From Octopus sinensis (Eukaryota), in assembly GCF_006345805.1 (NCBI RefSeq), contig NC_043009.1:59458001-59522000 (forward strand): a stretch of DNA of 64,000 nucleotides. The letters are read 5' to 3'. The translations under genes were made by a program, and so were the position numbers. Position 1 is the stretch's first letter; each line of letters begins with the position of its first letter. Positions 18,194 to 60,860 of the stretch are shown here, piece by piece. The notes beneath the pieces were generated by a model. The model saw only the letters and a program-made list of their open reading frames with translations, made no database searches and was not told where the DNA came from.

Positions 18194-18615
18194 AAGGCGG
18201 TGAGCTGGCAGAAACGTTAGCACGCCGCGCGAAATGCTTAGTGGTATTTCGTCTGCCGTTACGTTCTGAGTTCAAATTCCGCCGAGGTCGACATTGCTTT
18301 TCTTCCTTTCGGGGTCGATAAATTAAGTACCAGTTACGCACTGGAGTCGATGTAATCGACTTAATCCATTTCTCTGTTCTTGTTTGTCCTCTCTGTGTTT
18401 AGCCCCTTGTGGGTAGTAAAGAAATGGGTATTTCGTCTGCTGTTACGTTCTGAGTTCAAATTCCACCGAGGTCGACTTTGCCTTTCATCATTTCGGGGTT
18501 CGATAAATCAAGTACCTGTCACATACTGGAGTAGATGTAATCGACTTTATCCCTTTGTCTGTCCTTGTTTGTCCCCCTATGTTTATCCCCTTGTGGGCAA
18601 TAAAGAAAGGAGAAA
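18194..18615 (+). mobile_element. SINE family B dimer
   Basis: Head aaggcggtgagctggcagaaacgttagc followed by two tandem bodies joined at gaaatgg|gtatttcgtctg. Confidence 0.85.
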
Positions 18616-25995: not shown

Positions 25996-26759
25996 ACTCT
26001 GAACGTTCGCCTCTACCCCCCCCCTTACGTCTATAGCTGCAGCAAGGTCTTCAGTGACTAAAGTCAAACTAAATTACGTCAGTCATCAAATTCGTGGACA
26101 ATAGATTTCCTATTTTGTTGTCCGACAGCTTCCTTTGAAAACCTTACGAAGATGAAAGGACCCAGCCCCAAACTTCAGACACGATTCTATGAAACGGCAC
26201 ACCTGAAATAAACACTACGCATTGCTCTCCTCTGCCCTTCCCTACACCGTCTTCCTTCCCCTTCTTCGTTTACAAACTAAAACCGCATTCTTTAATGCAT
26301 TGTCATACGTTAGTGCGTATCATAGACGCAGGATTGGTTTTAATTCAGTTGAGAGCAAACCCAATTTAGCTCAGTGGGTTGAAATTTCTTTAATAATCCT
26401 GTTATTGGACTATCACTTAACATACATACAGTTTCTCTTTTTTTTAGTTTTCGGTGAATATTTAACATGGTATAATTACAGGAGAGATTTTGTTTCAATA
26501 ATCATCGCGTGTTGCCTAAAAACCCGTGGCATATCATATAGCCACACCTCGTAGCTTCGCCATCGTGAATTTAATAAGCGGCAAAAACATTAATTTGAGA
26601 CGAAAAAGAGAAATACGATTAATAGGATACAAACCTCATATCTACCGCGTCCATGTTATCTATTTTGGGGAATCTTGTTAAATTTCTTTCAACTACTTTA
26701 AATCTTTCAAATTTTCACCGTATTACAAAACATGTAGTTCTGATGTGGCCAGACTGTAT

Positions 26760-27543
26760 TACCTAGTTCTTTACTGCTCACAAGGAGCTAAACGCAGAGA
26801 GGACAAACAAGGACAGACAAACGGATTAAGTCGATTATATCGACCCCAGTGCGTAACTGGTACTTATTTAATCGACCCCGAAAGGATGAAAGGCAAAGTC
26901 GACCTTGGAGGAATTTGAACTCAGAACGTAGCGGCAGACGAAATACCTATTTCTTTACTACCATAAGGGGCTAAACACAGAAGAGGACAAACAAGGACAA
27001 ACAACGGATTAGTCGATTACATCGGACCCTACTGCGCAAAAATGTACTTAGTTTATCGACCCCCAAAAGGATGAAAGGCAAAGTCGACCTCGGCGGAATT
27101 TGAACTCAGAACGTAGCGGCAGACTATATTACCTATTTCTTTACTACCCACAAGGGGCTAAACGCAGAGAGGACAAACAGGGACAGACAAACGGATTAAG
27201 TCGATTATATCGACCCCAGTGCGTAACTGGTCCTTAATTTATCAACCCCCGAAAAGAAGAAAGGCAAAGTCGGCCTCGGCGGAATTTGAATCAGAACGTA
27301 GCAGCAGACTATTACCTATTTCTTTATTACCACAAGGAGCTAAACACAGAGAGGACAACAAGGACAGAACAACGGATTAAGTCGATTATATCGACCCCAG
27401 TGCGTAACTGGTACTTATTAATCGACCCCGAAAGGATGACGGCAAAGTCGACCTCGGCGGAATTTGAACTCAGACGTAGCGGTAGACGAAATACCGCTAA
27501 GCATTTCGCCCGCATTGCTAACGTTTCTGCCAACTCGCCGCCT
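26760..27543 (-). mobile_element. SINE family B tetramer (one head plus four ~185-bp tandem bodies)
   Basis: Units restart at about 26761, 26945, 27131 and 27314; head at 27500-27543. Confidence 0.85.
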
Positions 27544-39947: not shown

Positions 39948-40400
39948 TGATGCGTTACATCATAGACAGGGTAGTTAAGGAACCTGACATGAGTGGGGCC
40001 TGATCAATTTGGATCAATCAAAAGCTTTCGATGGGGTAGACCAACGATACTTGGAGGCTGTCCTGGGAGCGACTGGTCTAGGTCCCGTCTTCTGCAGCTG
40101 GATAGCTGCTTTGTACAGAGGCATCCGTTCGGTAATTCGCGTAAATTGACATCTATCGGGACCTTTCGACATTGCACGTTCGGTCCGTCGGGGATGCCTC
40201 CTCCCGTCGCTTCTATATGTATTGACTCTCGAGCCACTACTGCGGAAGCTGGCGTCTCTGAGGATCATCTCGCGAGAATTGGAATGCGGGAAGAGAGTGT
40301 CTGCATAAGTGGACGTCAACATCATAATGTCTAGCCACGAGCACATTGAGCTGGTCGGCGAGACACTGAAAGACTACGAAGCGGTAACAGGAGCGAAATC
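39948..40400 (+). pseudogene. L1/Tx1-clade reverse transcriptase fragment
   Basis: INLDQSKAFD.VD, SVR.GC..LLYVLTLEPLLRKL and a decayed SAY(ADD)V; frameshifted. Confidence 0.75.
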
Positions 40401-40419
40401 AAGAAGAAAAGGTCGATAT

Positions 40420-40675
40420 CATTTGGCGAACCGCTGGATTATTTTATCGATCTCGATTGGATATGTTAATTTATCGATCCCATTTGGCGAACCACTAAGT
40501 TACTTTATCGACATCCTTTGGCGAACCGCTAAGTTATTTTATCGATCTCGATTGGTGAACCACTAAGTTATTTTGTCGATCACTTTTGGCGAACCTCTAA
40601 GTTATTATATCGATCACCTTTGGCGAACCACTAAATTATTTTATCAATCACCTTTGACGAACCGCTAAGTTATTT
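40420..40675. repeat. 34-bp minisatellite derived from SINE family A
   Basis: ttggcgaaccgctaagttattttatcgatcacct units start at 40484, 40518, 40552, 40586, 40620 and 40654. Confidence 0.8.
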
Positions 40676-40860
40676 AATCTTGTAGTAGATTTATCACCAT
40701 TCACTTAGGGACTAGTAACCACTATAAGCTGTGGTTTGAAATGGTTCACACGTGGCTAAAGGATTTTACATTTAGATATAACTGGGGTACTTATGTGTAC
40801 CCATGTCTTTTGCTTCTGCTTTTTTCCATGGGTGCGTGTAAGTTTTTCATTTATTTCTTA

Positions 40861-41103: not shown

Positions 41104-41166
41104 ATATGCTGCCACTTTTTGATGAAATTTTTTCTGAAAAGATTTCATCAAAAAGTGGCAGCATAT
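41104..41166. repeat. Perfect 25-bp inverted repeat (fold-back hairpin)
   Basis: atatgctgccactttttgatgaaat / atttcatcaaaaagtggcagcatat, with further pairing in the 13-nt spacer. Confidence 0.9.
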
Positions 41167-41230
41167 AAATATATATATACATATATATACATGATACATA
41201 TATATATATATATTATATATATATATATAT

Positions 41231-43612
41231 AGCAATTAAGGACAACTACTTAATAAGGAAAACTTAACAAGAAATTGTCAGTAGATAGCGTAAAAACCTC
41301 ATAAGAGAAAAAATTTCGAAAATAATTATTTCTTATTGAACATATTATTTATATATAGAGGGCATTATACATACATGCCAGGAGGCATTCTACATACACG
41401 CCATACGCTAAGAGGGACAATCAGTCATTTCTAACAAAAATATTACTAATCCCACCGAATGCAATTTTTCAAAGAAAGACATTTAAAAATATATAGACCT
41501 GTATCACAGTGATTTCATACTTACGTAATCATCAGCAGGCCTGAATATACTATAAATAAACAACGACCCTGCTTCGCTTAAGCCGATCAGCTAACTGATC
41601 AACATCAACGAAGCACATGGGTGGGTTTATATATACTATATCCGGATGAATGGCAAACTTTTACGAATTGCATTTCGGGAGAGGAAAAGTTTTTTCGGAA
41701 TAAAAATTTAGCAATTAAGGACAACTACTTAATAAGGAAAACTTAACAAGAAATTGTCAGGTAGATAGCGTAAAAACCTCATAAGAGAAAAAATTTCGAA
41801 AATAATTATTTCTTATTGAACATATTAATTTATATATAGAGGGCATTATACATACATGCCAGGAGGCATTCTACATACACGCCATACGCTAAGAGGGACA
41901 ATCAGTCATTTCTACCAAAAATATTACTAATCCCACCGAATGCAATTTTTCAAAAAAGACATTTAAAAATATATAGACCTGTATCACAGTGATTTCATAC
42001 TTACGTAATCATCAGCAGGCCTGAATATACTATAAATAAACAACGACCCTGCTTCGCTTAAGCCGATCAGCTAACTGATCAACATCAACGAAGCACATGG
42101 GTGGGTTTATATATACTATATCCGGATGAATGGCAAACTTTTACGAATTGCATTTCGGGAGAGGAAAAGTTTTTTCGGAATAAAAATTTAGCAACTAAGG
42201 ACAACTACTTAATAAGGAAAACTTAACAAGAAATTGTCAGGTAGATAGCGTAAAAACCTCATAAGAGAAAAAATTTCGAAAATAATTATTTCTTATTGAA
42301 CATATTAATTTATATATAGAGGGCATTATACATACATGCCAGGAGGCATTCTACATACACGCCATACGCTAAGAGGGACAATCAGTCATTTCTACCAAAA
42401 ATATTACTAATCCCACCGAATGCAATTTTTCAAAGAAGACATTTAAAAATATATAGACCTGTATCACAGTGATTTCATACTTACGTATCATCAGCAGGCC
42501 TGAATATACTATAAATAACAACGACCCTGCTTCGCTTAAGCCGATCAGCTAACTGATCAACATCAACGAAGCACATGGGTGGGTTTATATATACTATATC
42601 CGGATGAATGGCAAACTTTTACGAATTGCATTTCGGGAGAGGAAAAGTTTTTTCGGAATAAAAATTTAGCAATTAAGGACAACTACTTAATAAGGAAAAC
42701 TTAACAAGAAATTGTCAGGTAGATAGCGTAAAAACCTCATAAGAGAAAAAATTTCGAAAATAATTATTTCTTATTGAACATATTATTTATATATAGAGGG
42801 CATTATACATACATGCCAGGAGGCATTCTACATACACGCCATACGCTAAGAGGGACAATCAGTCATTTCTACCAAAAATATTACTAATCCCACCGAATGC
42901 AATTTTTCAAAGAAAGACATTTAAAAATATATAGACCTGTATCACAGTGATTTCATACTTACGTAATCATCAGCAGGCCTGAATATACTATAAATAAACA
43001 ACGACCCTGCTTCGCTTAAGCCGATCAGCTAACTGATCAACATCAACGAAGCACATGGGTGGTTTATATATACTATATCCGGATGAATGGCAAACTTTTA
43101 CGAATTGCATTTCGGGAGAGGAAAAGTTTTTTCGGAATAAAAATTTAGCAATTAAGGACAACTACTTAATAAGGAAAACTTAACAAGAAATTGTCAGGTA
43201 GATAGCGTAAAAACCTCATAAGAGAAAAAATTTCGAAAATAATTATTTCTTATTGAACATATTAATTTATATATAGAGGGCATTTACATACATGCCAGGA
43301 GGCATTCTACTACACCCATACGCTAAGAGGACAATCAGTCATTTCTACCAAAAATATTACTAATCCCACCGAATGCAATTTTTCAAAGAAAGACATTTAA
43401 AAATATATAGACCTGTATCACAGTGATTTCATACTTACGTAATCATCAGCAGGCCTGAATATACTATAAATAAACAACGACCCTGCTTCGCTTAAGCCGA
43501 TCAGCTAACTGATCAACATCAACGAAGCACTTTTGGTAGAAATGACTGATTGTCCCTCTTAGCGTATGGCGTGTATGTAGAATGCCTCCTGGCATGTATG
43601 TATAATGCCCTC

Positions 43613-43620
<8 letters not shown>
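41231..43620 (-). mobile_element. Hammerhead-containing ~480-bp tandem array 1 (retrozyme or non-autonomous Penelope-like), 4.8 units plus inverted tail
   Basis: Units start at 41231, 41710, 42190, 42668 and 43147, with one hammerhead per unit. An inverted copy of unit sequence lies at 43531-43620. Flanked by (TA)n; no ORF. Confidence 0.8.
41497..41540 (-). ncRNA. Type I hammerhead ribozyme motif (first of 10; others start at ~41977, 42457, 42935, 43411, 44027, 44509, 44986, 45462, 45940)
   Basis: Minus strand aggcctg-CTGATGA-ttac(gtaa)gtat-GAA-atcac(t)gtgat-A-caggtct: 7-bp stem I, stem II with GUAA tetraloop, palindromic stem III and AUA site. Confidence 0.8.
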
Positions 43621-43667
<47 letters not shown>

Positions 43668-43726
43668 ATGTATATGTATCATGTATATATATATATATAA
43701 TATATATACATATATATACATGATAC

Positions 43727-43759
<33 letters not shown>

Positions 43760-43760
<1 letters not shown>

Positions 43761-46106
43761 GCAATTAAGGACAACTACTTAATAAGGAAAACTTAACAAG
43801 AAATTGTCAGTAGATAGCGTAAAAACCTCATAAGAGAAAAAATTTCGAAAATAATTATTTCTTATTGAACATATTAATTTATATATAGAGGGCATTATAC
43901 ATACATGCCAGGAGGCATTCTACATACACGCCATACGCTAAGAGGGACAATCAGTCATTTCTACCAAAAATATTACTAATCCCACCGAATGCAATTTTTC
44001 AAAGAAAGACATTTAAAAATATATAGACCTGTATCACAGTGATTTCATACTTACGTAATCATCAGCAGGCCTGAATATACTATAAATAAACAACGACCCT
44101 GCTTCGCTTAAGCCGATCAGCTAACTGATCAACATCAACGAAGCACATGGGTGGGTTTATATATACTATAATCCGGATGAATGGCAAACTTTTACGAATT
44201 GCATTTCGGGAGAGGAAAAGTTTTTTCGGAATAAAAATTTAGCAATTAAGGACAACTACTTAATAAGGAAAACTTAACAAGAAATTGTCAGGTAGATAGC
44301 GTAAAAACCTCATAAGAGAAAAAATTTCGAAAATAATTATTTCTTATTGAACATATTAATTTATATATAGAGGGCATTATACATACATGCCAGGAGGCAT
44401 TCTACATACACGCCATACGCTAAGAGGGACAATCAGTCATTTCTACCAAAAATATTACTAATCCCACCGAATGCAATTTTTCAAAGAAAGACATTTAAAA
44501 ATATATAGACCTGTATCACAGTGATTTCATACTTACGTAATCATCAGCAGGCCTGAATATACTATAATAAACAACGACCCTGCTTCGCTTAAGCCGATCA
44601 GCTAACTGATCAACATCAACGAAGCACATGGGTGGGTTTATATATACTATATCCGGATGAATGGCAAACTTTTACGAATTGCATTTCGGGAGAGGAAAAG
44701 TTTTTTCGGAATAAAAATTTAGCAACTAAGGACAACTACTTAATAAGGAAAACTTAACAAGAAATTGTCAGGTAGATAGCGTAAAAACCTCATAAGAGAA
44801 AAAATTTCGAAAATAATTATTTCTTATGAACATATTATTTATATATAGAGGGCATTATACATACATGCCAGAGGCATTCTACATACACGCCATACGCTAA
44901 GAGGGACAATCAGTCATTTCTACCAAAAATATTACTAATCCCACCGAATGCAATTTTTCAAAGAAAGACATTTAAAAATATATAGACCTGTATCACAGTG
45001 ATTTCATACTTACGTAATCATCAGCAGCCTGAATATACTATAAATAAACAACGACCCTGCTTCGCTAAGCCGATCAGCTAACTGATCAACATCAACGAAG
45101 CACATGGGTGGTTTATATATACTATATCCGGATGAATGGCAAACTTTTACGAATTGCATTTCGGGAGAGGAAAAGTTTTTTCGGAATAAAAATTTAGCAA
45201 TTAAGGACACTACTTAATAAGGAAAACTTAACAAGAAATTGGTCAGGTAGATAGCGTAAAAACCTCATAAGAAAAAAATTTCGAAAATAATTATTTCTTA
45301 TTGAACATATTATTTATATATAGAGGGCATTATACATACATGCCAGGAGGCATTCTACATACACGCCATACGCTAAGAGGGACAATCAGTCATTTCTACC
45401 AAAAATATTACTAATCCCACCGAATGCAATTTTTCAAAGAAAGACATTTAAAAATATATAGACCTGTATCACAGTGATTTCATACTTACGTAATCATCAG
45501 CAGGCCTGAATATACTATAAATAACAACGACCCTGCTTCGCTTAGCCGATCAGCTAACTGATCAACATCAACGAAGCACATGGGTGGGTTTATATATACT
45601 ATATCCGGATGAATGGCAAACTTTTACGAATTGCATTTCGGGAGAGGAAAAGTTTTTTCGGAATAAAAATTTAGCAATTAAGGACAACTACTTAATAAGG
45701 AAAACTTAACAAGAAATTGTCAGGTAGATAGCGTAAAAACCTCATAAGAGAAAAAATTTCGAAAATAATTATTTCTTATTGAACATATTAATTTATATAT
45801 AGAGGGCATTTACATACATGCCAGGAGGCATTCTACATACACGCCATACGCTAAGAGGGACAATCAGTCATTTCTACCAAAAATATTACTAATCCCACCG
45901 AATGCAATTTTTCAAAGAAAGACATTTAAAAATATATAGACCTGTATCACAGTGATTTCATACTTACGTAATCATCAGCAGGCCTGAATATACTATAAAT
46001 AAACAACGACCCTGCTTCGCTTAAGCCGATCAGCTAACTGATCAACATCAACGAAGCGTATGGCGTGTATGTAGAATGCCTCCTGGCATGTATGTATAAT
46101 GCCCTC

Positions 46107-46115
<9 letters not shown>
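43760..46115 (-). mobile_element. Hammerhead-containing ~480-bp tandem array 2 (duplicate of array 1)
   Basis: Units start at 43760, 44241, 44721, 45196 and 45673; inverted tail at 46058-46115. Confidence 0.8.
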
Positions 46116-46159
<44 letters not shown>

Positions 46160-46779
46160 ATGTATATGTATCATGTATATATATATATTATATATATATA
46201 TATATACAAATATATATACATATATATACATGATACATATATATACAAAACCACAGAATTTTATGATATAGCCCGTACCCTTTCATATATTGAAGTTATT
46301 AAAGCCCATCTGGCCACATATATATTTCAGGATGCTTTGATACTTACTACGATGATGGTGATGATGATGAGCTCAATGGGCTCAATGACCGTCCAGCAAT
46401 TAAGAGTGAAAGCCCCGTAATCTTTGTATAGACATCTCACCAGACGGAAATTCAGAAGGAATACTACCAGCACCGCCACCACCGCCATCCCGCCTCGTTG
46501 CTAAGGTAGAGAATTGTTCGTATTTGTTTCTGGACTAATTTATTTTTAGTCGAGAAGCCTCAGCTGCGAAGTACAAGTTGTTATTGACTTTATACTTCGA
46601 TGTGGGCTTTGCTGACAGCCATTGTCTTTAACATCTAGCGTAAGATAAGATACTTTGTCAGTGATGATCCTACTTTTTTATAAGTTGGCAGCCATTTTGT
46701 ATGTGCGTATGTACATATGTTCGCATTTGTTTATACATATTTGTGTATGTGTTTGCATGTATATGTATGTATATGGCTG

Positions 46780-47971: not shown

Positions 47972-48012
47972 TATTATTATTATCATTATTATTATTATTA
48001 TTATTATTATTA

Positions 48013-48960
48013 CTTTTTTTTTCTTCTTTCAAATTTGCTTCCATTTCTTGCCGAGTGTCTTCCCGACTCCTAGGTCAAAGAAACTCATAGTATACATTGG
48101 TAGGCCATTAAACCAAACTCAGTAGTTCGTTTATTTTTTTTTTTTTTAAGTTAAATTAAAATACATGAGCAGCAACAGTTCTCACATCGACAATGCTCTT
48201 CTCAATACGTGTGATGTACCAGTAAAGACAATCTTTTGCACTTCTTGCAGGGATGGTAAGCCAGGGATCATTCTCATATAATTTTCGGTTCCCTTCTTGA
48301 TCATTCCTAGTGCTCCTACGATCACTGGTATTGTAACCGCCTTGAGATGCCACATTTTCTCAATTTCAATGAGTAGGTCTTTATATTTTCTGAGCTTGTC
48401 AAACTCTTTCGCTGAGATATTATGATCACAGGGGATGCTCATGTCGATCAATAAGCAAACTTTATTGTTTTGGTCTTTCACAACAATATCTGGTTTATTG
48501 GCATTGATGGTTCGGTCTGTATGTACTGGAAAGTCCCACAGAATGGTTACATTTTCTCCTTCAGTTACAGCCTCAGGGTGGTGATTATACCACTTGTCGG
48601 CAGTTTTGATATTGTAATGCCGACTTATTAGCCAGTGTAGATATTGGCCAACTCTGTCATGTCTTAATTTATACTCCACTGGTGCTAAGACTTTACATCC
48701 AGAGATTAGGTGGTCCACTGTTTCAATCATGTCGTTGCAGAATCGGCATTTTGGGTCTGCTCCATTTTTCATCACATTGGCCTGGTAGTTCCGGGTTAAT
48801 AGGCTTTGATCTTGAGCAGCCAGGATGAAACCTTCGCTCTCTGCTTTTAGCCCTGAGCTCCGTAGCCACTGATGGGTTTGCTTCTGGTCAACATCAGCTT
48901 GTTTGCTGCGGGTCACATATTTGCCGTGCAGAGGTTTCTCCTCCCACCTATCAGCCAATT
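48013..48960 (-). mobile_element. R4/Dong-clade LINE 3' end, family 1 copy 1; open 258-aa frame (CCHC knuckle plus restriction-like endonuclease)
   Basis: CRFCNDMIETVDHLISGC, RHD, NKPDIVV..LLID..K..KY; inserted in (TAA)n. Confidence 0.92.
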
Positions 48961-48994
48961 TTATTATTAATATTATTATATTATTATTATTATA

Positions 48995-49939
48995 CTTTTT
49001 TTTTCTTCTTCAAATTTGCTTCCATTTCTTGCCGAGTGTCTTCCCGACTCCTAGGTCAAAGAAACTCATAGTATACATTGGTAGGCCATTAAACCAAACT
49101 CAGTAGTTCGTTATTTTTTTTTTTTTAAGTTAAATTAAAATACATGAGCAGCAACAGTTCTCACATCGACAATGCTCTTCTCAATACGTGTGATGTACCA
49201 GTAAAGACAATCTTTTGCACTTCTTGCAGGGATGGTAAGCCAGGGATCATTCTCATATAATTTTCGGTTCCCTTCTTGATCATTCCTAGTGCTCCTACGA
49301 TCACTGGTATTGTAACCGCCTTGAGATGCCACATTTTCTCAATTTCAATGAGTAGGTCTTTATATTTTCTGAGCTTGTCAAACTCTTTCGCTGAGATATT
49401 ATGATCACAGGGGATGCTCATGTCGATCAATAAGCAAACTTTATTGTTTTGGTCTTTCACAACAATATCTGGTTTATTGGCATTGATGGTTCGGTCTGTA
49501 TGTACTGGAAAGTCCCACAGAATGGTTACATTTTCTCCTTCAGTTACAGCCTCAGGGTGGTGATTATACCACTTGTCGGCAGTTTTGATATTGTAATGCC
49601 GACTTATTAGCCAGTGTAGATATTGGCCAACTCTGTCATGTCTTAATTTATACTCCACTGGTGCTAAGACTTTACATCCAGAGATTAGGTGGTCCACTGT
49701 TTCAATCATGTCGTTGCAGAATCGGCATTTTGGGTCTGCTCCATTTTTCATCACATTGGCCTGGTAGTTCCGGGTTAATAGGCTTTGATCTTGAGCAGCC
49801 AGGATGAAACCTTCGCTCTCTGCTTTTAGCCCTGAGCTCCGTAGCCACTGATGGGTTTGCTTCTGGTCAACATCAGCTTGTTTGCTGCGGGTCACATATT
49901 TGCCGTGCAGAGGTTTCTCCTCCCACCTATCAGCCAATT
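48995..49939 (-). mobile_element. R4/Dong-clade LINE 3' end, family 1 copy 2 (tandem duplicate)
   Basis: Identical protein to copy 1 at an offset of 979 bp. Confidence 0.92.
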
Positions 49940-49971
49940 TTATTATTAATATTATTATTATTATTATTATT

Positions 49972-50964
49972 CAGTAGTTTTATTTTTATAGCGTGCTTTC
50001 ACTTCACTACCGAACGCAGCTCTGTGTGCCTTGGGTATGTGCTGTGATTTGTTGTGACGCTCTGATGGTTATTGTATGGAAAGTGTTCTGCGTAGGATGT
50101 GTGCAGTGCCTAGTAGTGCAATTTTCTGTATGTTATATGTGTTTGTAAGTCCTGGTGTTTTTGTTATGTATTTGTCTGAATATTTTTTTATCATGCCTAA
50201 TGCACCTACTATGATAGGAATTGTTTGTTTTCAGATTCCACATTCTAGTTACCTCTATTTCCAGGTCTTTGTATTTTGAGAGTTTCTCCATTTCTTTTAG
50301 AGACACGTTGTCATCAGCCGGTATTGATACATCAATTAGAAAGCATTTTTTTTCTTCATGGTCTCTGACAACTATATCTGGTCTGTTGGCCTTAATTTCT
50401 CTATCTGTGTGTATCGGCATATCCCAGAGTATGGTTGCTTTCTCGTTTTCTGTGACCTTTTCTGGTGTGTGCCTATACCATCTTTTTTCTGTTGTTATTC
50501 CATAATGTTGGCATAGCTTCCAATGTATGTAGGTTCCAACTCTGTCATGTCTGTGAATATATTCCTTCTTAGCCAGGACTGGGCAGCTAGAGATAATATG
50601 ATTTATTGTTTCTTGTCCATCTCCACATATTCTGCAGTTACTTGTAATATTTCTTTTCATTACATGTTTTTGGTAATTTCTGGTGGGGAGGCTTTGGTCT
50701 TGTGCTGCAATTAAAAATCCCTCTGTTTCTGCTTTGAGTCCTGAGCTTCTCAACCATTGCTGGGATTTTTCATTGTCTATTTCTTTTGCGTTTAGTTTAG
50801 TCCAGTATTTCCCATGAAGGGGCTTTTCTTGCCATCGTTTTATCATGGTTCGTTGCTGTTCTATTTTTACTTTGGATTTCATTTGTTTTATAGCTTTTGT
50901 TGTTTCTTCATCTTCTTCTTCTTATGTTTATTAGGTGGTATGATTTCTTGTTTGTATTTGTCAG
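49972..50964 (-). mobile_element. R4/Dong-clade LINE 3' end, family 2 copy 1
   Basis: CRICGDGQETINHIISSC, RHD, NRPDIVV..FLID; 3' end abuts (TAA)n. Confidence 0.92.
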
Positions 50965-53900
50965 AATTTCTAACTTCCTGGGAATTTCGTCGAAAACTTC
51001 ATGGAAAGTTCCGAGGATTTTCTAACTTCCTGGATATCTCGTCGAAAACTTCATGGGAAATTCCGAGGATTTTCTAACTCCCTGAAAATTTCGTCCAAAC
51101 CCTCATGGAAAGTTCCGAGGATTTCCTAACTTCCTGGATATTTCTTAGAAATCCACATGGGAAGTTCAGAGGATTTCCTAACTTCCTGGATATTTCATAG
51201 AATTCCTCATGGGAAGTTCCGCGGATTTTCTAACTTCCTGGAAATTTGGTCGAAAACTTCATGGAAAGTTCCGAGAATTTCTAACTCCCTGGAAATTTCG
51301 TCCAAATCCTCATGGAAAGTTCCGAGGATTTCCTAACTTCCTGGATATTTCGTAGAAATCCTCATGGGAAGTTCCGAGAACTTTCTAACTTCCTGGGAAT
51401 TTCGTCGAAAACTTCATGGAAAGTTCCGAGGATTTTCTAACTTCCTGGATAGTTCGTCGAAAACTTCATGGGGAGTTCCGAGATTTTTCTAACTTCCTGG
51501 AAATTTCGTCGAAAACTTCGTGGGAAGTTCCGAGGGTTTTCTAACATCCTGGAAATTTGGTCGAAAACTTCATGGGAAGTTCCGAGGACTTTCTAATTTC
51601 GTGGGAATTTCGTCGAAAACTTCATGGCAAACTCCGAGGATTTTCTAACTTCCAGGAAATTTGGTCGAAAACTTCATGGGAAATTCCGAGGATTTTCTAA
51701 CTCCCTGGAAATTTCGTCCAAATCCTCATGGAAAGTTCCGAGGATTTCCTAACTTCCTGGATATTTCGTAAAATTCCTCATGGGAAGTTCCGAGGATTTT
51801 CTAACTTCCTGGATATTTCGTCGAAAACTTCATGGGATTTTCCGAGGGTTTCCTAAATTCCTGGACATTTCGTCGAAAACTTCATGGGAAGTTCCGAGGG
51901 TTTTCTAACTTCCTGGAAATTTGGTCGAAAACTTCATGGGAAGTTCCGAGGACTTTCTATTTCCTGGAAATTTGGTCGAAAACTTCATGGGAAGTTCCGA
52001 GGACTTTCTAATTTCGGGGAATTTCGTCGAAAACTTCATGGCAAATTCCGAGGATTTTCTAACTTCCTGGAAATTTGGTCGAAAAGTTCATGGGAAATTC
52101 CGAGGATTTTCTAACTCCCTGGAAATTTCGTCCAATCCTCATGGAAAGTTCCGAGATTCCTAACTTCCTGGATATTTTGTAGAATTCCTCATGGGAAGTT
52201 CCGAGGAGTTTCTAACTTCCTGGATATTTCATCGAAAACTTCATGGGAATTTCCGAGGATTTTCTAACTTCCTGGACTTTCGTCGAAAACTTCATGGGAA
52301 GTGCCGAGGGTTTTCTAACATCCTGGAAATTTGGTCGAAAACTTCATGGAAGTTCCGAGGACTTTCTAATTTCCTGGGAATTTCATCGAAAACTTCATGG
52401 TAAGTTCCGAGATTTTTCTAACTTCCTGGATATTTCGTCGAAAACTTCATGGAAAGTTCCGAGGATTTTCTAACTTCCTGGATATTTCGTCGAAAACTTC
52501 ATGGCAAATTCCGAGGATTTTCTAACTTCCTGGATATCTCGTCGAAAACTTCATGGGAGGTCCCGAGGTTTTCTAACTTCTTGGAAATTTCGTCGAAAAC
52601 TTCGTGGGAAGTTCCGAGGGTTTTCTAACTTCCTGGAAATTTGGTCGAAAACTTCATGGCAAACTCCGAGGATTTTCTAACTTCCAGGAAATTTGGTCGA
52701 AAACTTCATGGGAAATTCCGAGGATTTTCTAACTCCCTGGAAATTTCGTCCAAATCCTCATGGAAAGTTCCGAGGATTTCCTAACTTCCTGGATATTTCG
52801 TAAAATTCCTCATGGGAAGTTCCGAGAATTTTCTAACTTCCTGGATATTTCGTCGAAAACTTCATGGGATTTTCCGAGGGTTTCCTAAATTCCTGGACAT
52901 TTCGTCGAAAACTTCATGGGAAGTTCCGAGGGTTTTCTAACTTCCTGGAAATTTGGTCGAAAACTTCATGGGAAGTTCCGAGGACTTTCTAATTTCCTGG
53001 AAATTTGGTCGAAAACTTCATGGGAAGTTCCGAGGACTTTCTAATTTCGTGGGAATTTCGTCGAAAACTTCATGGCAAATTCCGAGGATTTTCTAACTTC
53101 CTGGAAATTTGGTCGAAAAGTTCATGGGAAATTCCGAGGATTTTCTAACTCCCTGGAAATTTCGTCCAAATCCTCATGGAAAGTTCCGAGGATTTCCTAA
53201 CTTCCTGGATATTTTGTAGAATTCCTCATGGGAAGTTCCGAGGATTTTCTAACTTCCTGGATATTTCATCGAAAACTTCATGGGAATTTCCGAGGATTTT
53301 CTAACTTCCTGGACATTTCGTCGAAAACTTCATGGGAAGTGCCGAGGGTTTTCTAACATCCTGGAAATTTGGTCGAAAACTTCATGGGAAGTTCCGAGGA
53401 CTTTCTAATTTCCTGGGAATTTCATCGAAAACTTCATGGTAAGTTCCGAGGATTTTCTAACTTCCTGGATATTTCGTCGAAAACTTCATGGAAAGTTCCG
53501 AGGATTTTCTAACTTCCTGGATATTTCGTCGAAAACTTCATGGCAAATTCCGAGGATTTTCTAACTTCCTGGATATCTCGTCGAAAACTTCATGGGAGGT
53601 CCCGAGGTTTTTCTAACTTCTTGGAAATTTCGTCGAAAACTTCGTGGGAAGTTCCGAGGGTTTTCTAACTTCCTGGAAATTTGGTCGAAAACTTCATGGG
53701 AAGTGCCGAGGACTTTCTTATTTCCTGGAAATTTCGTCCAAATCCTCATGGAAAGTTCCGAGGATTTCCTAACTTCCTGGATATTTCGTAGAATTCCTCA
53801 TGGGAAGTTCCGAGGATTTTCTAACTTCCTGTATATTTCGTCGAAAACTTCATGGGAATTTCCGAGGATTTTCTAACTTCCTGGAAATTTCGTCGAAAAC

Positions 53901-55829
53901 TTCATGGGAAGTTCCGAGGGTTCTCTAACTTCCTGGAAATTTGTTCGAAAACTTCATGGGAAGTTCCGAGGACTTTCTAATTTCCTGGGAATTACGTCGA
54001 AAACTTCATGGAAAGTTCCGAGGATTTTCTAACTTCCTGGATATGTCGTCGAAACTTTATGACAAATTCCGAGGATTTTCTAACTTCCTGGATATTTCGT
54101 CGAAAACTCCATGGGAAGTTCCGAGGTTTTTCTAACTTCCTTGAAATTTGGTCGGAAACTTCATGGGAAGTTCCGAGGGCTTTCTAATTTCCTGGGAATT
54201 TCGTCGAAAACTTCATGGAAAGTTCCGAGGATTTTCTAACTTCCTGGATAGTTCGTCGAAAACTTCAGGGAAGTTCCGAGGTTTTTCTAACTTCCTGGAA
54301 ATTTCGTCGAAAACTTCATGGGAAGTTCCGAGGGTTTTCTAACTTCCTGGAAATTTGGTCGAAAACTTCATGGGAATTTCCGAGGACTTTCTAATTTCCT
54401 GGGAATTTCGTCGAAAACTTCATGGGAAGTTCCGAGGTTTTTCTAACTTCCTGGAAAATTCGTCGAAAACTTCGTGGGAAGTTCCGATGGTTTTCTAACT
54501 TCCTGGAAATTTGGTCGCAAACTTCATGGGAAGTTCCGAGGACTTTCTAATTTCCTGGGAATTTCGTCGAAAACCTCATGGCAAATTCCGAGGATTTTCT
54601 AACTTCCTGGAAATTTGGTCGAAAATTTCATGGGAAATTCCGAGGATTTTCTAACTCCCTGGAAATTTCGTCCAAATCCTCATGGAAAGTTCCGAGGATT
54701 TCCTAACTTCCTGGATATTTCGTAGAATTCCTCATGGGAAGTTCCGAGGATTTTCTAACTTTCTGGATAGTTCGTCGAAAACTTCATGGGAATTTCCGAG
54801 GACTTTCTAATTTCCTAGGAATTTCGTCGAAAACTTCATGGAAAGTTCCGAGGATTTTCTAACTCCCTGGAAATTTCGTAGAAATCCTCATGGGAAGTTC
54901 CGAGGACTTTCTAACTTCCTGGAATTTCGTAGAATTCCTCATGGAAAGTTCCGATGATTTCCTAACTTCCTGGATATTTCGTATAAATCCTCATGGGAAG
55001 TTCCGAGGACTTTCCAACTTCCTGGAATTTCGTAGAATTCCTCATGGGAAGTTCCGAGGATTTTCTAACTTCCTGGTAATTTGGTCGAAAACTTCGTGGG
55101 AAGTACCGAGGACTTTCTAATTTCCTGGGAATTTCGTCGAAAACTTCATGGAGAGTTCCGAGGATTTTCTAACTTCCTGGATATCTCGTCGAAAACTTCA
55201 TGGGAAATTCCTAGGATTTTCTAACTCCCTGGAAATTTCGTCCAAATCCTCGTGGAAAGTTCCGATGATTTCCTAACTTCCTGGATATTTCGTAGAAATC
55301 CTTATGGGAAGTTCCGATGATTTCCTAACTTCAAGGATGTTTCATAGAATTCCTCATGGGAAGTTCCGAGGATTTTCTAACTTCCTGGAAATTTGGTCGA
55401 AAACTTCATGAAAAGTTCCGATAATTTTCTAACTTCCTGGAAATTTCGTCGAAAACTTCATGGGGAATTCCGAGGATTTTCTAACTTCCAGGATATTTCG
55501 TCGAAAACTTCATGGGAAATTCCGAGGATTTTCTAACTCCCTGGAAATTTCGTAGAAATCCTCATGGAAAGTTCCGAGGATTTCCTAACTTCCTGGATAT
55601 TTCGTAGAAATCCTCATGGGAAGTTCCGAGGACTTTCTAACTTCCTGGGAATTTCGTCGAAAACTTCATTGAAAGTTCCGAGGATTTTCTAACTTCCTGG
55701 AAATTTCGTCGAAAACTTCATGGGAAGTTCCGGGAATTTTCTAACTTTCTGAAAATTTGGTCGAAAACTTCATGGGAAGTTCCGAGGACTTTCTAATTTC
55801 CTGGGAATTTCGTCGAAAACTTCATGGCA
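50965..55829. repeat. 52-bp satellite, ~93 copies, with ~20-mer (~1.04 kb) higher-order repeat
   Basis: Consensus aacttcctggaaatttcgtcgaaaacttcatgggaagttccgaggattttct; ccgagg occurs at 51011, 51063 and 51115. Confidence 0.95.
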
Positions 55830-56284: not shown

Positions 56285-56325
<41 letters not shown>

Positions 56326-56347
56326 TATTATTATTATTATTATTATT

Positions 56348-57341
56348 CAGTAGTTTTATTTTTATAGCGTGCTTTCACTTCACTACCGAGCGCAGCTCTG
56401 TGTGCCTTGGGTAAGTGCTGTGATTTGTTGTGACGCTCTGATGGTTATTGTATGGAAAGTGTTCTGCGTAGGATGTGTGCAGTGCCTAGTAGTGCAATTT
56501 TCTATATGTTATGTGTGTTTGTAAGTCCTGGTGTTTTTGTTATGTATTTGTCTGAATATTTTTTTATCATGCCTAATGCACCTACTATGATAGGAATTGT
56601 TTCTGTTTTCAGATTCCACATTCTAGTTACCTCTATTTCCAGGTCTTTGTATTTTGAGAGTTTCTCCATTTCTTTTAGAGACACGTTGTCATCAGCCGGT
56701 ATTGATACATCAATTAGAAAGCATTTTTTTCATCATGGTCTCTGACAACTATATCTGGTCTGTTGGCCTTAATTTCTCTATCTGTGTGTATCGGCATATC
56801 CCAGAGTATGGTTGCTTTCTCGTTTTCTGTGACCTTTTCTGGTGTGTGCCTATACCATCTTTTTCTGTTGTTATTCCATAGTGTTGGCATAGCTTCCAAT
56901 GTATGTAGGTTCCAACTCTGTCATGTCTGTGAATATATTCCTTCTTAGCCAGGGCTGGGCAGCTAGAGATAATATGATTTATTGTTTCTTGTCCATCTCC
57001 ACATATTCTGCAGTTACTTGTAATATTTCTTTTCATTACATGTTTTTGGTAATTTCTGGTGGGGAGGCTTTGGTCTTGTGCTGCAATTAAAAATCCCTCT
57101 GTTTCTGCTTTGAGTCCTGAGCTTCTCAACCATTGCTGGGATTTTTCTTTGTCTATTTCTTTTGCGTTTAGTTTAGCCCAGTATTTCCCATGAAGGGGCT
57201 TTTCTTGCCATCGTTTTATCATGGTTCGTTGCTGTTCTATTTTTAGTTTGGATTTCATTTGTTTTATAGCTTTTGTTGTTTCTTCATCTTCTTCTTCTTC
57301 ATGTTTATTAGGTGGTATGATTTCTTGTTTGTATTTGTCAG
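56348..57341 (-). mobile_element. R4/Dong-clade LINE 3' end, family 2 copy 2
   Basis: Near-identical to 49972-50964, with (TAA)n on both sides. Confidence 0.92.
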
Positions 57342-60443: not shown

Positions 60444-60860
60444 AAGGCGGCGAGCTGGCAGAAACGCTAGCACGCCGGGCGAAATGCGTAGCCGTATTTC
60501 GTCCGCCGTTACGTCCTGAGTTCAAATTCCGCCGAGGTCGACTTTGCTTGTCATCTTTTCGGGGTCGATTAAATATGTACCAGTTACGCACTGGTGTCGA
60601 TACAATCGACTTAATCCGTTTGTCTGTGCTTTTTTGTCCTCTCTGTTTTTAGCCCCTTGTGGGTAGTAAAGAAATAGGTATTTCGTCTGCCGCTACGTTC
60701 TGAGTTCAAATTCCACTGAGGTCGACTTTGCCTTTCATCCTTTCGGGGTCGATAAATTAAGTACCAGTTACGTACTGGAGTCGATGTAATCGACTTAATC
60801 CCTTTGTCAGTCCTTGCTTGTCCCCTCTATGTTTAGCCCCTTGTGGGCAATAAAAAAATA
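60444..60860 (+). mobile_element. SINE family B dimer
   Basis: Head aaggcggcgagctggcagaaac followed by two bodies joined at gaaatag|gtatttcgtctg. Confidence 0.85.

What the first reader, a model, noticed from the sequence alone, without database searches (positions are those of the whole stretch)
41231..46115. Ten tandem hammerhead ribozyme motifs in a ~480-bp non-coding repeat: candidate cephalopod retrozyme / circular-RNA system
Seen: every ~480-bp unit carries on the minus strand aggcctg-CUGAUGA-uuac(GUAA)guau-GAA-aucac(u)gugau-A-caggucu. This is a complete type I hammerhead core with a 7-bp stem I (extendable by 4 bp past a 2x2 internal loop), a GNRA-capped stem II and a palindromic stem III with a 1-nt loop. 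The units have no ORF and are near-identical. Established: tandem non-coding repeats with one type I hammerhead per unit define non-LTR retrozymes (newt satellite 2, Schistosoma Sm-alpha, Dolichopoda pDo500) and Penelope-like pLTRs. Palindromic stem III motifs favour dimeric cleavage between adjacent copies, and such monomers can circularise. Inference: a minus-strand read-through transcript would self-process at AUA (between 41502 and 41501, then every ~480 nt) into unit-length linear or circular RNAs mobilised in trans by a Penelope-like RT. Caveat: the 10.1-11.1 pair is U-U rather than the usual G-C, which may lower activity. I cannot tell whether this family has already been described.
Basis: partly seen in the sequence, partly recalled or inferred. 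Interest (0 to 1): 0.9.

Follow-up and report, generated by a model that had tools for sequence, protein, structure and literature searches.

The report
Ribozyme repeat copied from RNA circles
This 480-base non-coding repeat carries a hammerhead ribozyme motif in every unit and sits in TA microsatellites at many places in the genome; the shape of its insertions suggests it is likely pasted in by a Penelope-like retrotransposon enzyme that would copy one small RNA circle round and round from both ends of a DNA break.

Summary
Observation confirmed. Ten minus-strand type I hammerhead motifs lie in two five-unit blocks, which are duplicates of one insertion. The motif has 2,339 copies genome-wide, and its stems covary among subfamilies (10.1-11.1 is U·U, A-U, G·U or G-C; stem I has compensatory changes). 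It is a new member of a known class, the animal non-LTR retrozymes.

What is new is the insertion anatomy. Of 83 loci examined, 65 are head-to-head inversions, mostly within (TA)n. All 65 end once at each of two fixed sites about 120 nt apart; neither site is the ribozyme cut. An old Penelope-like family in the same genome follows the same rule (8 of 8 resolved copies). Units within an array share variants across both arms, and two of four variants tested occur in one array only. This favours rolling reverse transcription of one RNA monomer, likely a circle, primed from both ends of a break.

Not shown: cleavage, expression, circularity and the partner enzyme. No homology to autonomous elements was found beyond a similar ribozyme stem.

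The parts
41163..41229 (.). Left (TA)n target microsatellite
41230..43530 (-). Block 1, long arm: 4 full 480-bp units (starts 41230, 41709, 42189, 42667) plus 388 bp from 43146; ribozyme-sense RNA is the minus strand. Its outer end at 41230 is fixed site S1 (unit position 1), an inferred reverse-transcription start
43531..43623 (+). Block 1, inverted arm (unit positions 212 to about 120), head-to-head with the long arm; its outer end is fixed site S120, the second inferred start
43624..43758 (.). TA-rich spacer: right flank of block 1 plus left flank of block 2
43759..46057 (-). Block 2, long arm: duplicate of block 1 (unit starts 43759, 44240, 44720, 45195, 45672)
46058..46117 (+). Block 2, inverted arm (unit positions about 182 to 120), shorter than in block 1
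46118..46245 (.). Right (TA)n flank
41495..41542 (-). Type I hammerhead motif, unit 1; predicted cut 41502/41501
41975..42022 (-). Hammerhead motif, unit 2; predicted cut 41982/41981
42455..42501 (-). Hammerhead motif, unit 3; one base missing in stem II
42933..42980 (-). Hammerhead motif, unit 4
43409..43456 (-). Hammerhead motif, unit 5
44025..44072 (-). Hammerhead motif, unit 6
44507..44554 (-). Hammerhead motif, unit 7
44984..45030 (-). Hammerhead motif, unit 8; one base missing in stem I
45460..45507 (-). Hammerhead motif, unit 9
45938..45985 (-). Hammerhead motif, unit 10
41502..41981 (-). One predicted RNA monomer (cut to cut, 480 nt); folds at -130.7 kcal/mol, z -6.4; stem I joins its two ends
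41548..41641 (-). Long predicted hairpin just 5' of stem I, present in every unit; its inner part folds at z -5.6
41709..41828 (-). 'Tail' of about 120 nt between the two fixed insertion ends (unit positions 1 and 119-124), shown for unit 2

Best explanation
This is a young, protein-free, genome-wide repeat family with a type I hammerhead motif in each 480-bp unit, and it likely spreads as a small RNA circle that a Neptune-type Penelope-like RT/GIY-YIG enzyme would copy into (TA)n microsatellites. Steps: (1) inferred: read-through transcripts of an array are cut at AUA once per unit, with neighbouring ribozymes pairing their palindromic stem III; (2) inferred: the monomer is ligated into a circle that is stable because stem III cannot close alone; (3) inferred: the enzyme cuts both strands of a (TA)n tract and each DNA end primes cDNA on the same RNA, one at S1 and one at S120; (4) inferred: each cDNA rolls round the circle for up to about 16 units and stops at a random point, and the two are joined head to head, often at short microhomology; when only one end is extended, a plain 5'-truncated array results; (5) shown: the products are TA-flanked arrays with fixed 3' ends, scattered 5' ends, one end at each site and shared variants across both arms; (6) shown in two loci, cause inferred: a whole insertion can later be duplicated together with its TA flanks, as in this window.
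For: Family: 293 matches at the 39 of 450 candidates scored, the 150 listed at 98-100% identity; 2,339 motif copies with 0 in the reversed control; 1,302 exact copies of the U·U form. Structure: stem I and position 17 were not in the search patterns, yet stem I shows two compensatory double changes among subfamilies and 10.1-11.1 reads U·U, A-U, G·U or G-C. 92.6% of cells pair, with 9 double-change cells against a shuffled mean of 2.7 (relatedness inflates this). Anatomy: of 83 loci, 65 are inverted, and 65 of 65 have one outer end at S1 and one at S120 (L181 and L196 assigned by eye across a 20-bp indel; L057 and L058 completed). Both flanks pass a strict TA test in 36 of 39 young and 12 of 20 older loci. 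Only 2 of 108 inner ends fall within 10 nt of the cut site (about 5 expected by chance). One template per insertion: mean difference at 18 variable columns is 0.50 within arrays, 2.52 between arrays and 0.10 between opposite arms; 25 of 32 multi-unit arrays have one haplotype. Genome-wide, 16 of 16 copies of C355T and 13 of 13 of A370G lie in a single array, on both arms. Same rule in a Penelope-like family of this genome: family D has one end at each of two sites in 8 of 8 resolved inverted copies, with 3 more unresolved, and families A and B also show two TA-flanked 3' ends. Intact 781-aa and 775-aa RT+GIY-YIG frames with a C-x4-C-xx-C linker exist. Literature: a purified Penelope-like protein cuts and extends both strands, starts at two internal RNA sites that bound the tail, and is predicted to be a dimer (PMC11167929).
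Against: No cleavage, expression or circle was observed. The young subfamily has U·U at 10.1-11.1, and the active fold is disfavoured in silico (stem II pair probability about 0.25). Eight of nine Xenopus retrozymes did not cleave in vitro (preprint 10.64898/2026.07.22.740005), and ribozyme mutants did not impair insertion by the anole element (PMC11167929). No partner is identified: blastn and nhmmer found no significant similarity to families A-D, and pairwise alignments gave only 1-10 of 500 shuffles for three unrelated families alike. The tail is about 120 nt, against 30, 31 and 40 nt in A, B and D. Seven of 32 arrays are not single-haplotype, and L034, L047 and L049 are clear mosaics. Two of the four tested variants also occur elsewhere: T398C in 3 loci and T105C in 4. 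The window's own array has a variant in one unit only. Array lengths and indels may carry assembly error. Only 150 of 5,030 GIY-YIG candidates were scored.
Confidence: 0.7

Rival explanations
1. Same Penelope-like enzyme, but the template is a long uncut linear multimer transcribed from a source array; the ribozyme is weak or a passenger in the young subfamily.
For: U·U pair and AUA triplet; poor predicted folding; RT passes the cut site many times; uncut RNA is the main substrate of the anole element in vitro (PMC11167929); mosaic arrays L034, L047 and L049.
Against: A variant carried by every unit of one array and by no other locus needs a one-unit bottleneck, or a source array absent from this assembly. 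Stems covary across subfamilies.
Confidence: 0.12
2. The monomer circle is first amplified RNA-to-RNA (viroid-like rolling circle) into a linear concatemer, which is then reverse transcribed.
For: Explains the one-monomer bottleneck equally well. RNA-to-RNA replication is stated for a plant retrozyme in the abstract start of PMC9695139 (search listing only).
Against: No ribozyme motif on the plus strand of the unit. It needs an extra, unshown activity.
Confidence: 0.07
3. A single unit inserts and the array grows afterwards by unequal crossover, which also homogenises it (the model discussed in preprint 10.64898/2026.07.22.740005).
For: Whole insertions do get duplicated at DNA level (this window and L260).
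Against: Arrays are 98-100% identical yet up to about 20 pieces long; both inverted arms carry tandem units and share variants (mean difference 0.10); inner ends fall at random points in the unit, as for RT truncation.
Confidence: 0.05
4. The inverted arm comes from fold-back of the first cDNA, or from self-priming on an antisense RNA (proposed for rotifer Penelope, PMC3846280), not from a second priming on the same RNA.
For: Would also give identical variants on both arms; 30 of 40 arrays are compatible by length with fold-back in one direction.
Against: 10 of 40 are too long for fold-back in either direction; the S1 arm is the longer one in 18 of 40, so neither site is always first; junctions are scattered with no fixed palindrome; the one-end-each rule would be unexplained.
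Confidence: 0.06

Closest known systems
Metazoan non-LTR retrozymes (coral, mussel, axolotl; PMC7229834)
   Same: Tandem non-coding units with one type I hammerhead each, GC under 50%, highly paired predicted fold, Penelope-like elements in the same genome; axolotl HHR_Amex2 also has U·U at the base of helix II and cleaves better as a dimer.
   Different: Unit of 480 nt is above the 170-400 nt given there; strict (TA)n target, head-to-head inversion and two fixed ends were not described in the results and discussion I read; cleavage and circles are shown there but not here.
Vertebrate retrozymes as Penelope-like derivatives (preprint 10.64898/2026.07.22.740005)
   Same: Argues that retrozymes use Penelope-like machinery; unit lengths of 51-972 bp include this one.
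   Different: Evidence there is co-occurrence and pLTR homology in Xenopus; 35 species with no mollusc; arrays are ascribed to local amplification. Here homology to a pLTR is not detectable, but the integration fingerprint and the one-template signature are.
EN+ Penelope-like elements (Neptune and Poseidon clades; PMC8557442, PMC11167929, PMC3846280)
   Same: Partial tandems, inverted 5'-truncated copy head to head, tail at one end only, microsatellite targets, two internal RT start sites.
   Different: No ORF; tail about 120 nt rather than 30-40; up to about 16 units per arm; 5-bp palindromic stem III rather than a minimal ribozyme.
Non-autonomous Chlamys elements such as MRC1 (PMC8557442)
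   Same: Non-autonomous Penelope-like partners forming multicopy head-to-tail insertions.
   Different: Those share 3'-end sequence with their autonomous partner, and most Chlamys lack a canonical hammerhead.

Membership tests
Non-LTR retrozyme | Type I hammerhead motif in each unit of a tandem repeat | tested here: met
   10 of 10 units, 8 intact; 2,339 copies
Non-LTR retrozyme | Short non-coding unit, GC under 50% | tested here: met
   480 bp, GC 33%, longest stop-free frame 59 aa
Non-LTR retrozyme | Dispersed multi-copy arrays, no LTR layout | tested here: met
   83 loci mapped, bounded by TA and not by LTRs; PBS and PPT motifs were not searched for separately
Non-LTR retrozyme | Stable self-paired monomer fold | tested here: met
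   z -6.4, 0 of 100 shuffles as stable; prediction only
Non-LTR retrozyme | Self-cleavage of the RNA | not testable with these tools
   covariation suggests selection; folding predicts dimer dependence
Non-LTR retrozyme | Accumulates as unit-length linear and circular RNA | not testable with these tools
   only assembled contigs were available
Non-LTR retrozyme | Target-site duplication | tested here: inconclusive
   hidden by (TA)n flanks
Non-LTR retrozyme | Autonomous Penelope-like elements in the same genome | tested here: met
Canonical type I hammerhead | Core CUGANGA, GAA, A15.1-U16.1, H17 | tested here: met
Canonical type I hammerhead | G10.1-C11.1 pair | tested here: not met
   U·U in this subfamily; A-U, G·U and G-C in older ones
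Canonical type I hammerhead | Loop 1-loop 2 tertiary contact | not tested
   loop 2 varies (GUAA, AGAG); no 3D test made
Autonomous EN+ Penelope-like element | ORF with RT and GIY-YIG | tested here: not met
   no ORF; in 115 loci (overlapping) no RT-EN hit overlapped an array, and the nearest young copies (L036, L059) are separated by a TA tract
Penelope-like integration product | Inverted 5'-truncated copy, head to head | tested here: met
   65 of 83 loci
Penelope-like integration product | Tail at one end only | tested here: met
   65 of 65 inverted loci; length about 120 nt, not 30-40
Penelope-like integration product | Microsatellite target | tested here: met
   families A, B and D end in (TA)n too
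Non-autonomous derivative of a named Penelope-like family | Sequence homology to the partner's pLTR | tested here: inconclusive
   no significant hit to A-D; family D shares stem II arms and the same G/U/A variation at 10.1, but was found with a pattern demanding this; most GIY-YIG candidates were not scored

The most novel reading that the evidence does not exclude
Each insertion records one RNA circle being reverse transcribed twice, from both ends of a break in (TA)n, with an obligatory split between two start sites 120 nt apart. This would be genomic proof that retrozyme circles are transposition templates, and a general explanation of the tandem, inverted and tail structure of Penelope-like elements.
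Probability: 0.55. Interest if true: 0.75.

Novelty: new member of a known kind. Interest (0 to 1): 0.55.

Why it matters
How animal retrozymes move, and why Penelope-like elements leave tandem and inverted copies with a tail at one end, are described as open in the papers read (PMC7229834, PMC8557442, PMC11167929). This family is young, abundant and small, and intact candidate enzymes lie in the same genome. Its insertions make sharp predictions: two start sites, one per DNA end, and one monomer template. These can be tested with a 480-nt RNA and a purified protein. The arrays also argue against growth by unequal crossover for this family.

Tried and rejected
Expression: no RNA holder listed (20 rows, RNA status guessed). 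Four runs laid as contigs cover the unit and cross the unit-to-unit join, which cannot tell a circle from a tandem transcript or DNA; not used as evidence.

Rfam: no hammerhead model matched.

Partner by homology: blastn, shuffled pairwise alignment and nhmmer with a reversed control (best E 0.88) found none. A 70-nt AT-rich likeness to the 3' end of family A is not significant (E 0.059, E 7.5). Other hammerhead-like hits (218 vs 9 control; 30 loci read) showed no link to the unit, and one RT hit beside a simple-repeat match.

A-to-I editing written back into the genome: suggested by the first sample, but not supported with 61 loci (11 vs 9, p 0.15; polarised 10 vs 9, p 0.22). A 3'-G bias (p 0.012) is post hoc.

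Fold-back origin of the inverted arm: fails for 10 of 40 (five complex or truncated loci left out). Ends at the ribozyme cut site: rejected.

The promoter scan is bacterial and uninformative; the promoter is unknown. A recalled Pfam accession was not in the library. Earlier findings of this scan: nothing.

Literature searches showed no description of this family. Repbase, Dfam and subscription journals were not searchable, and the supplements of PMC7229834 and of the preprint could not be seen, so the family may be listed there.
Full report
Observation. No shuffled unit in 3,000 gave a hit. The region is two blocks of about 4.8 units, each followed by a short inverted arm and bounded by (TA)n. 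The blocks match each other with their flanks at 97% over 2.6 kb and share a variant in their third unit, so they are one insertion duplicated; another locus (L260) holds a whole insertion three times. Rfam has no matching model. No call names the organism; 'octopus-like cephalopod' is my inference from the 2.7-Gb genome and a recalled likeness of other repeats in the window.

The family. The unit gave 293 matches in the 39 candidates scored of 450, the 150 listed being 98-100% identical. A pattern for core plus stem III found 2,339 copies and none in the control; the exact U·U form has 1,302 copies, and 117 copies have a two-base loop 3, mostly in older subfamilies. Older subfamilies are 81-96% identical to the unit. 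Stem I, which the patterns did not constrain, changes from AGGCCUG/CAGGUCU to AGGCUUG/CAAGUCC and AGUCUUG/CAAGACU, and the 10.1-11.1 pair is U·U, A-U, G·U or G-C. On 28 distinct rows 92.6% of cells pair and 9 cells change on both sides against 2.7 in shuffles, but these reduce to 3 pairs and the rows are related. Core and stem III were fixed by the pattern, so their invariance is not evidence. The cut-to-cut monomer folds far better than shuffles (z -6.4). Stem I is stable (0.89-0.99), stem II is weak (about 0.25) and stem III does not form in a monomer, while two copies pair at -10.1 kcal/mol: a dimer-type ribozyme is predicted.

Insertion anatomy. I mapped 83 loci: 38 best DNA matches plus the window, 20 chosen for variant motifs, 4 more and 20 young loci picked from the first-contig list. 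This is a sample, not a census. Sixty-five are head-to-head inversions whose outer ends are RNA 3' ends, and all 65 end once at unit position 1 and once at position 119-124; independent choice of sites would give this about once in 10^19 (my arithmetic, 0.5^65). Eighteen loci are not inverted; their fixed end is at either site, apart from one internal fragment. Inner ends are spread over the whole unit and are not enriched at the ribozyme cut (2 of 108). Of 40 simple junctions, 21 overlap by 1-14 nt, 4 are flush and 15 have extra bases. Both flanks pass a strict TA test in 36 of 39 young and 12 of 20 older loci.

One template per insertion. Among 198 full units, differences at 18 variable columns average 0.50 within arrays, 2.52 between arrays and 0.10 between opposite arms; 25 of 32 multi-unit arrays have one haplotype (the columns were chosen as recurrent variants, leaving out those beside homopolymer shifts). 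Four array-wide variants were counted genome-wide. Two lie wholly in one array, on both arms (16 of 16; 13 of 13). Two do not: 10 of 14 and 7 of 10 copies are in the array, the rest elsewhere. Three arrays are clear mosaics (L034, L047, L049). Fold-back copying is impossible by length in 10 of 40 arrays, and neither site owns the longer arm (18 vs 22).

Candidate enzymes. A GIY-YIG search gave 147 matches among 150 scored of 5,030 candidates. These include a young family A with intact 781-aa RT+GIY-YIG frames and a family B of 775 aa, both with a C-x4-C-xx-C motif before the nuclease; PMC8557442 gives such a motif for Neptune and Nematis, so 'Neptune-type' is a likeness, not a tree result. A pattern for the same stem II with a different stem III found 100 hits, mostly an old family D; at least 14 of the 30 loci read have RT or nuclease homology nearby. 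In D, 8 of 8 resolved inverted copies end once at each of two sites about 40 nt apart, with 3 unresolved; A and B also have two TA-flanked ends about 30 nt apart. No significant homology links the 480-bp unit to A-D, so the partner is not identified.

Mechanism. Shown: the motif, its covariation, the family, the target, the two fixed ends, the one-end-each rule and the shared variants. Inferred: transcription, dimer cleavage, ligation to a circle, cutting of both target strands, two primings on one RNA, rolling synthesis and end-joining. The strongest outside support is the anole element, which cuts and extends both strands and starts at two internal sites that bound the tail (PMC11167929; main text and start of methods read). 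The same paper found the ribozyme dispensable for insertion in vitro, which counts against an essential role for cleavage.

Comparison. Non-LTR retrozymes and their circles were described in coral, mussel and axolotl, with rolling copying by a Penelope-like RT proposed but not shown (PMC7229834; parts 2-4 of 6 read, supplement unreadable). A 2026 preprint ties vertebrate retrozymes to pLTRs by co-occurrence and homology, samples no mollusc, favours local amplification and saw cleavage in 1 of 9 constructs (10.64898/2026.07.22.740005; parts 1-3 of 5 read, supplements closed). Tandem, inverted and tail features of Penelope-like elements come from passages of PMC8557442 and PMC3846280. The idea of circular templates for Penelope-like tandems is in passages of PMC4209133, and the retrozyme model in passages of PMC7761336. 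Passages of PMC10886601 and PMC9977147 added little. An AUA triplet in a natural viroid hammerhead is from the abstract start of PMC1636495 (listing only). Nine searches showed no account of this family; repeat databases and subscription journals were out of reach.

Verdict. A real, selected hammerhead-bearing retrozyme family and a new member of a known kind. Its value lies in the unusually clean record of how it integrates. Interest 0.55.

Noticed in passing
L149-L178 (e.g. G000:C3:57945606-57948630): Old, decayed Penelope-like family D whose 3' end carries a minimal hammerhead (stem III AGCGCU) with the same stem II arms and the same G/U/A variation at 10.1 as this family; possible common origin of the ribozyme.
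   Followed up: partly
L099-L103, L107-L112: Very young two-ORF Penelope-like family A (479 aa + 781 aa), with copies 96-99% identical, TA-targeted, and a degenerate ribozyme core (UUGAUAA).
   Followed up: partly
L036:5280-5524, L059:5711-5924: Two young arrays sit in the TA tract at the 3' end of young family B copies (98-100% identical to L106); may reflect the shared target only.
   Followed up: partly
L199-L228: Further dispersed hammerhead-like motifs of several sequence types (218 hits vs 9 control), single-copy per locus in most loci read and with no link found to this unit.
   Followed up: partly
unit-wide, 61 loci: Polarised array-level changes on the ribozyme strand are G>A 10 against C>U 1: a strand asymmetry that might reflect deamination of first-strand cDNA; post hoc and small numbers.
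   Followed up: partly
L232:700-2600: The G-C subfamily array contains repeated shorter sub-units with an internal deletion right after stem III, interleaved with full units.
   Followed up: no
window 47973-50964 and 56310-57341: About 1-kb 3' fragments of a LINE (zf-RVT hit, E 4e-4; likely restriction-like nuclease end) in near-identical tandem copies flanked by (ATT)n, with another copy 5 kb away.
   Followed up: partly
window 50967-55827: 52-bp satellite, about 94 copies.
   Followed up: no
window 18243-18608, 26750-27487, 60494-60860: A 184-186-bp repeat in tandem runs of 2-4 copies at three places; recalled as resembling an octopus SINE, not tested.
   Followed up: no
window 39990-40680: Decayed LINE RT-like fragment (judged by eye; no Pfam hit) followed by a 34-bp tandem repeat of about 6 copies.
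   Followed up: partly
all inverted arrays: Read-through of a head-to-head array would form a long perfect RNA hairpin, a likely substrate for small-RNA or editing pathways; untested.
   Followed up: no
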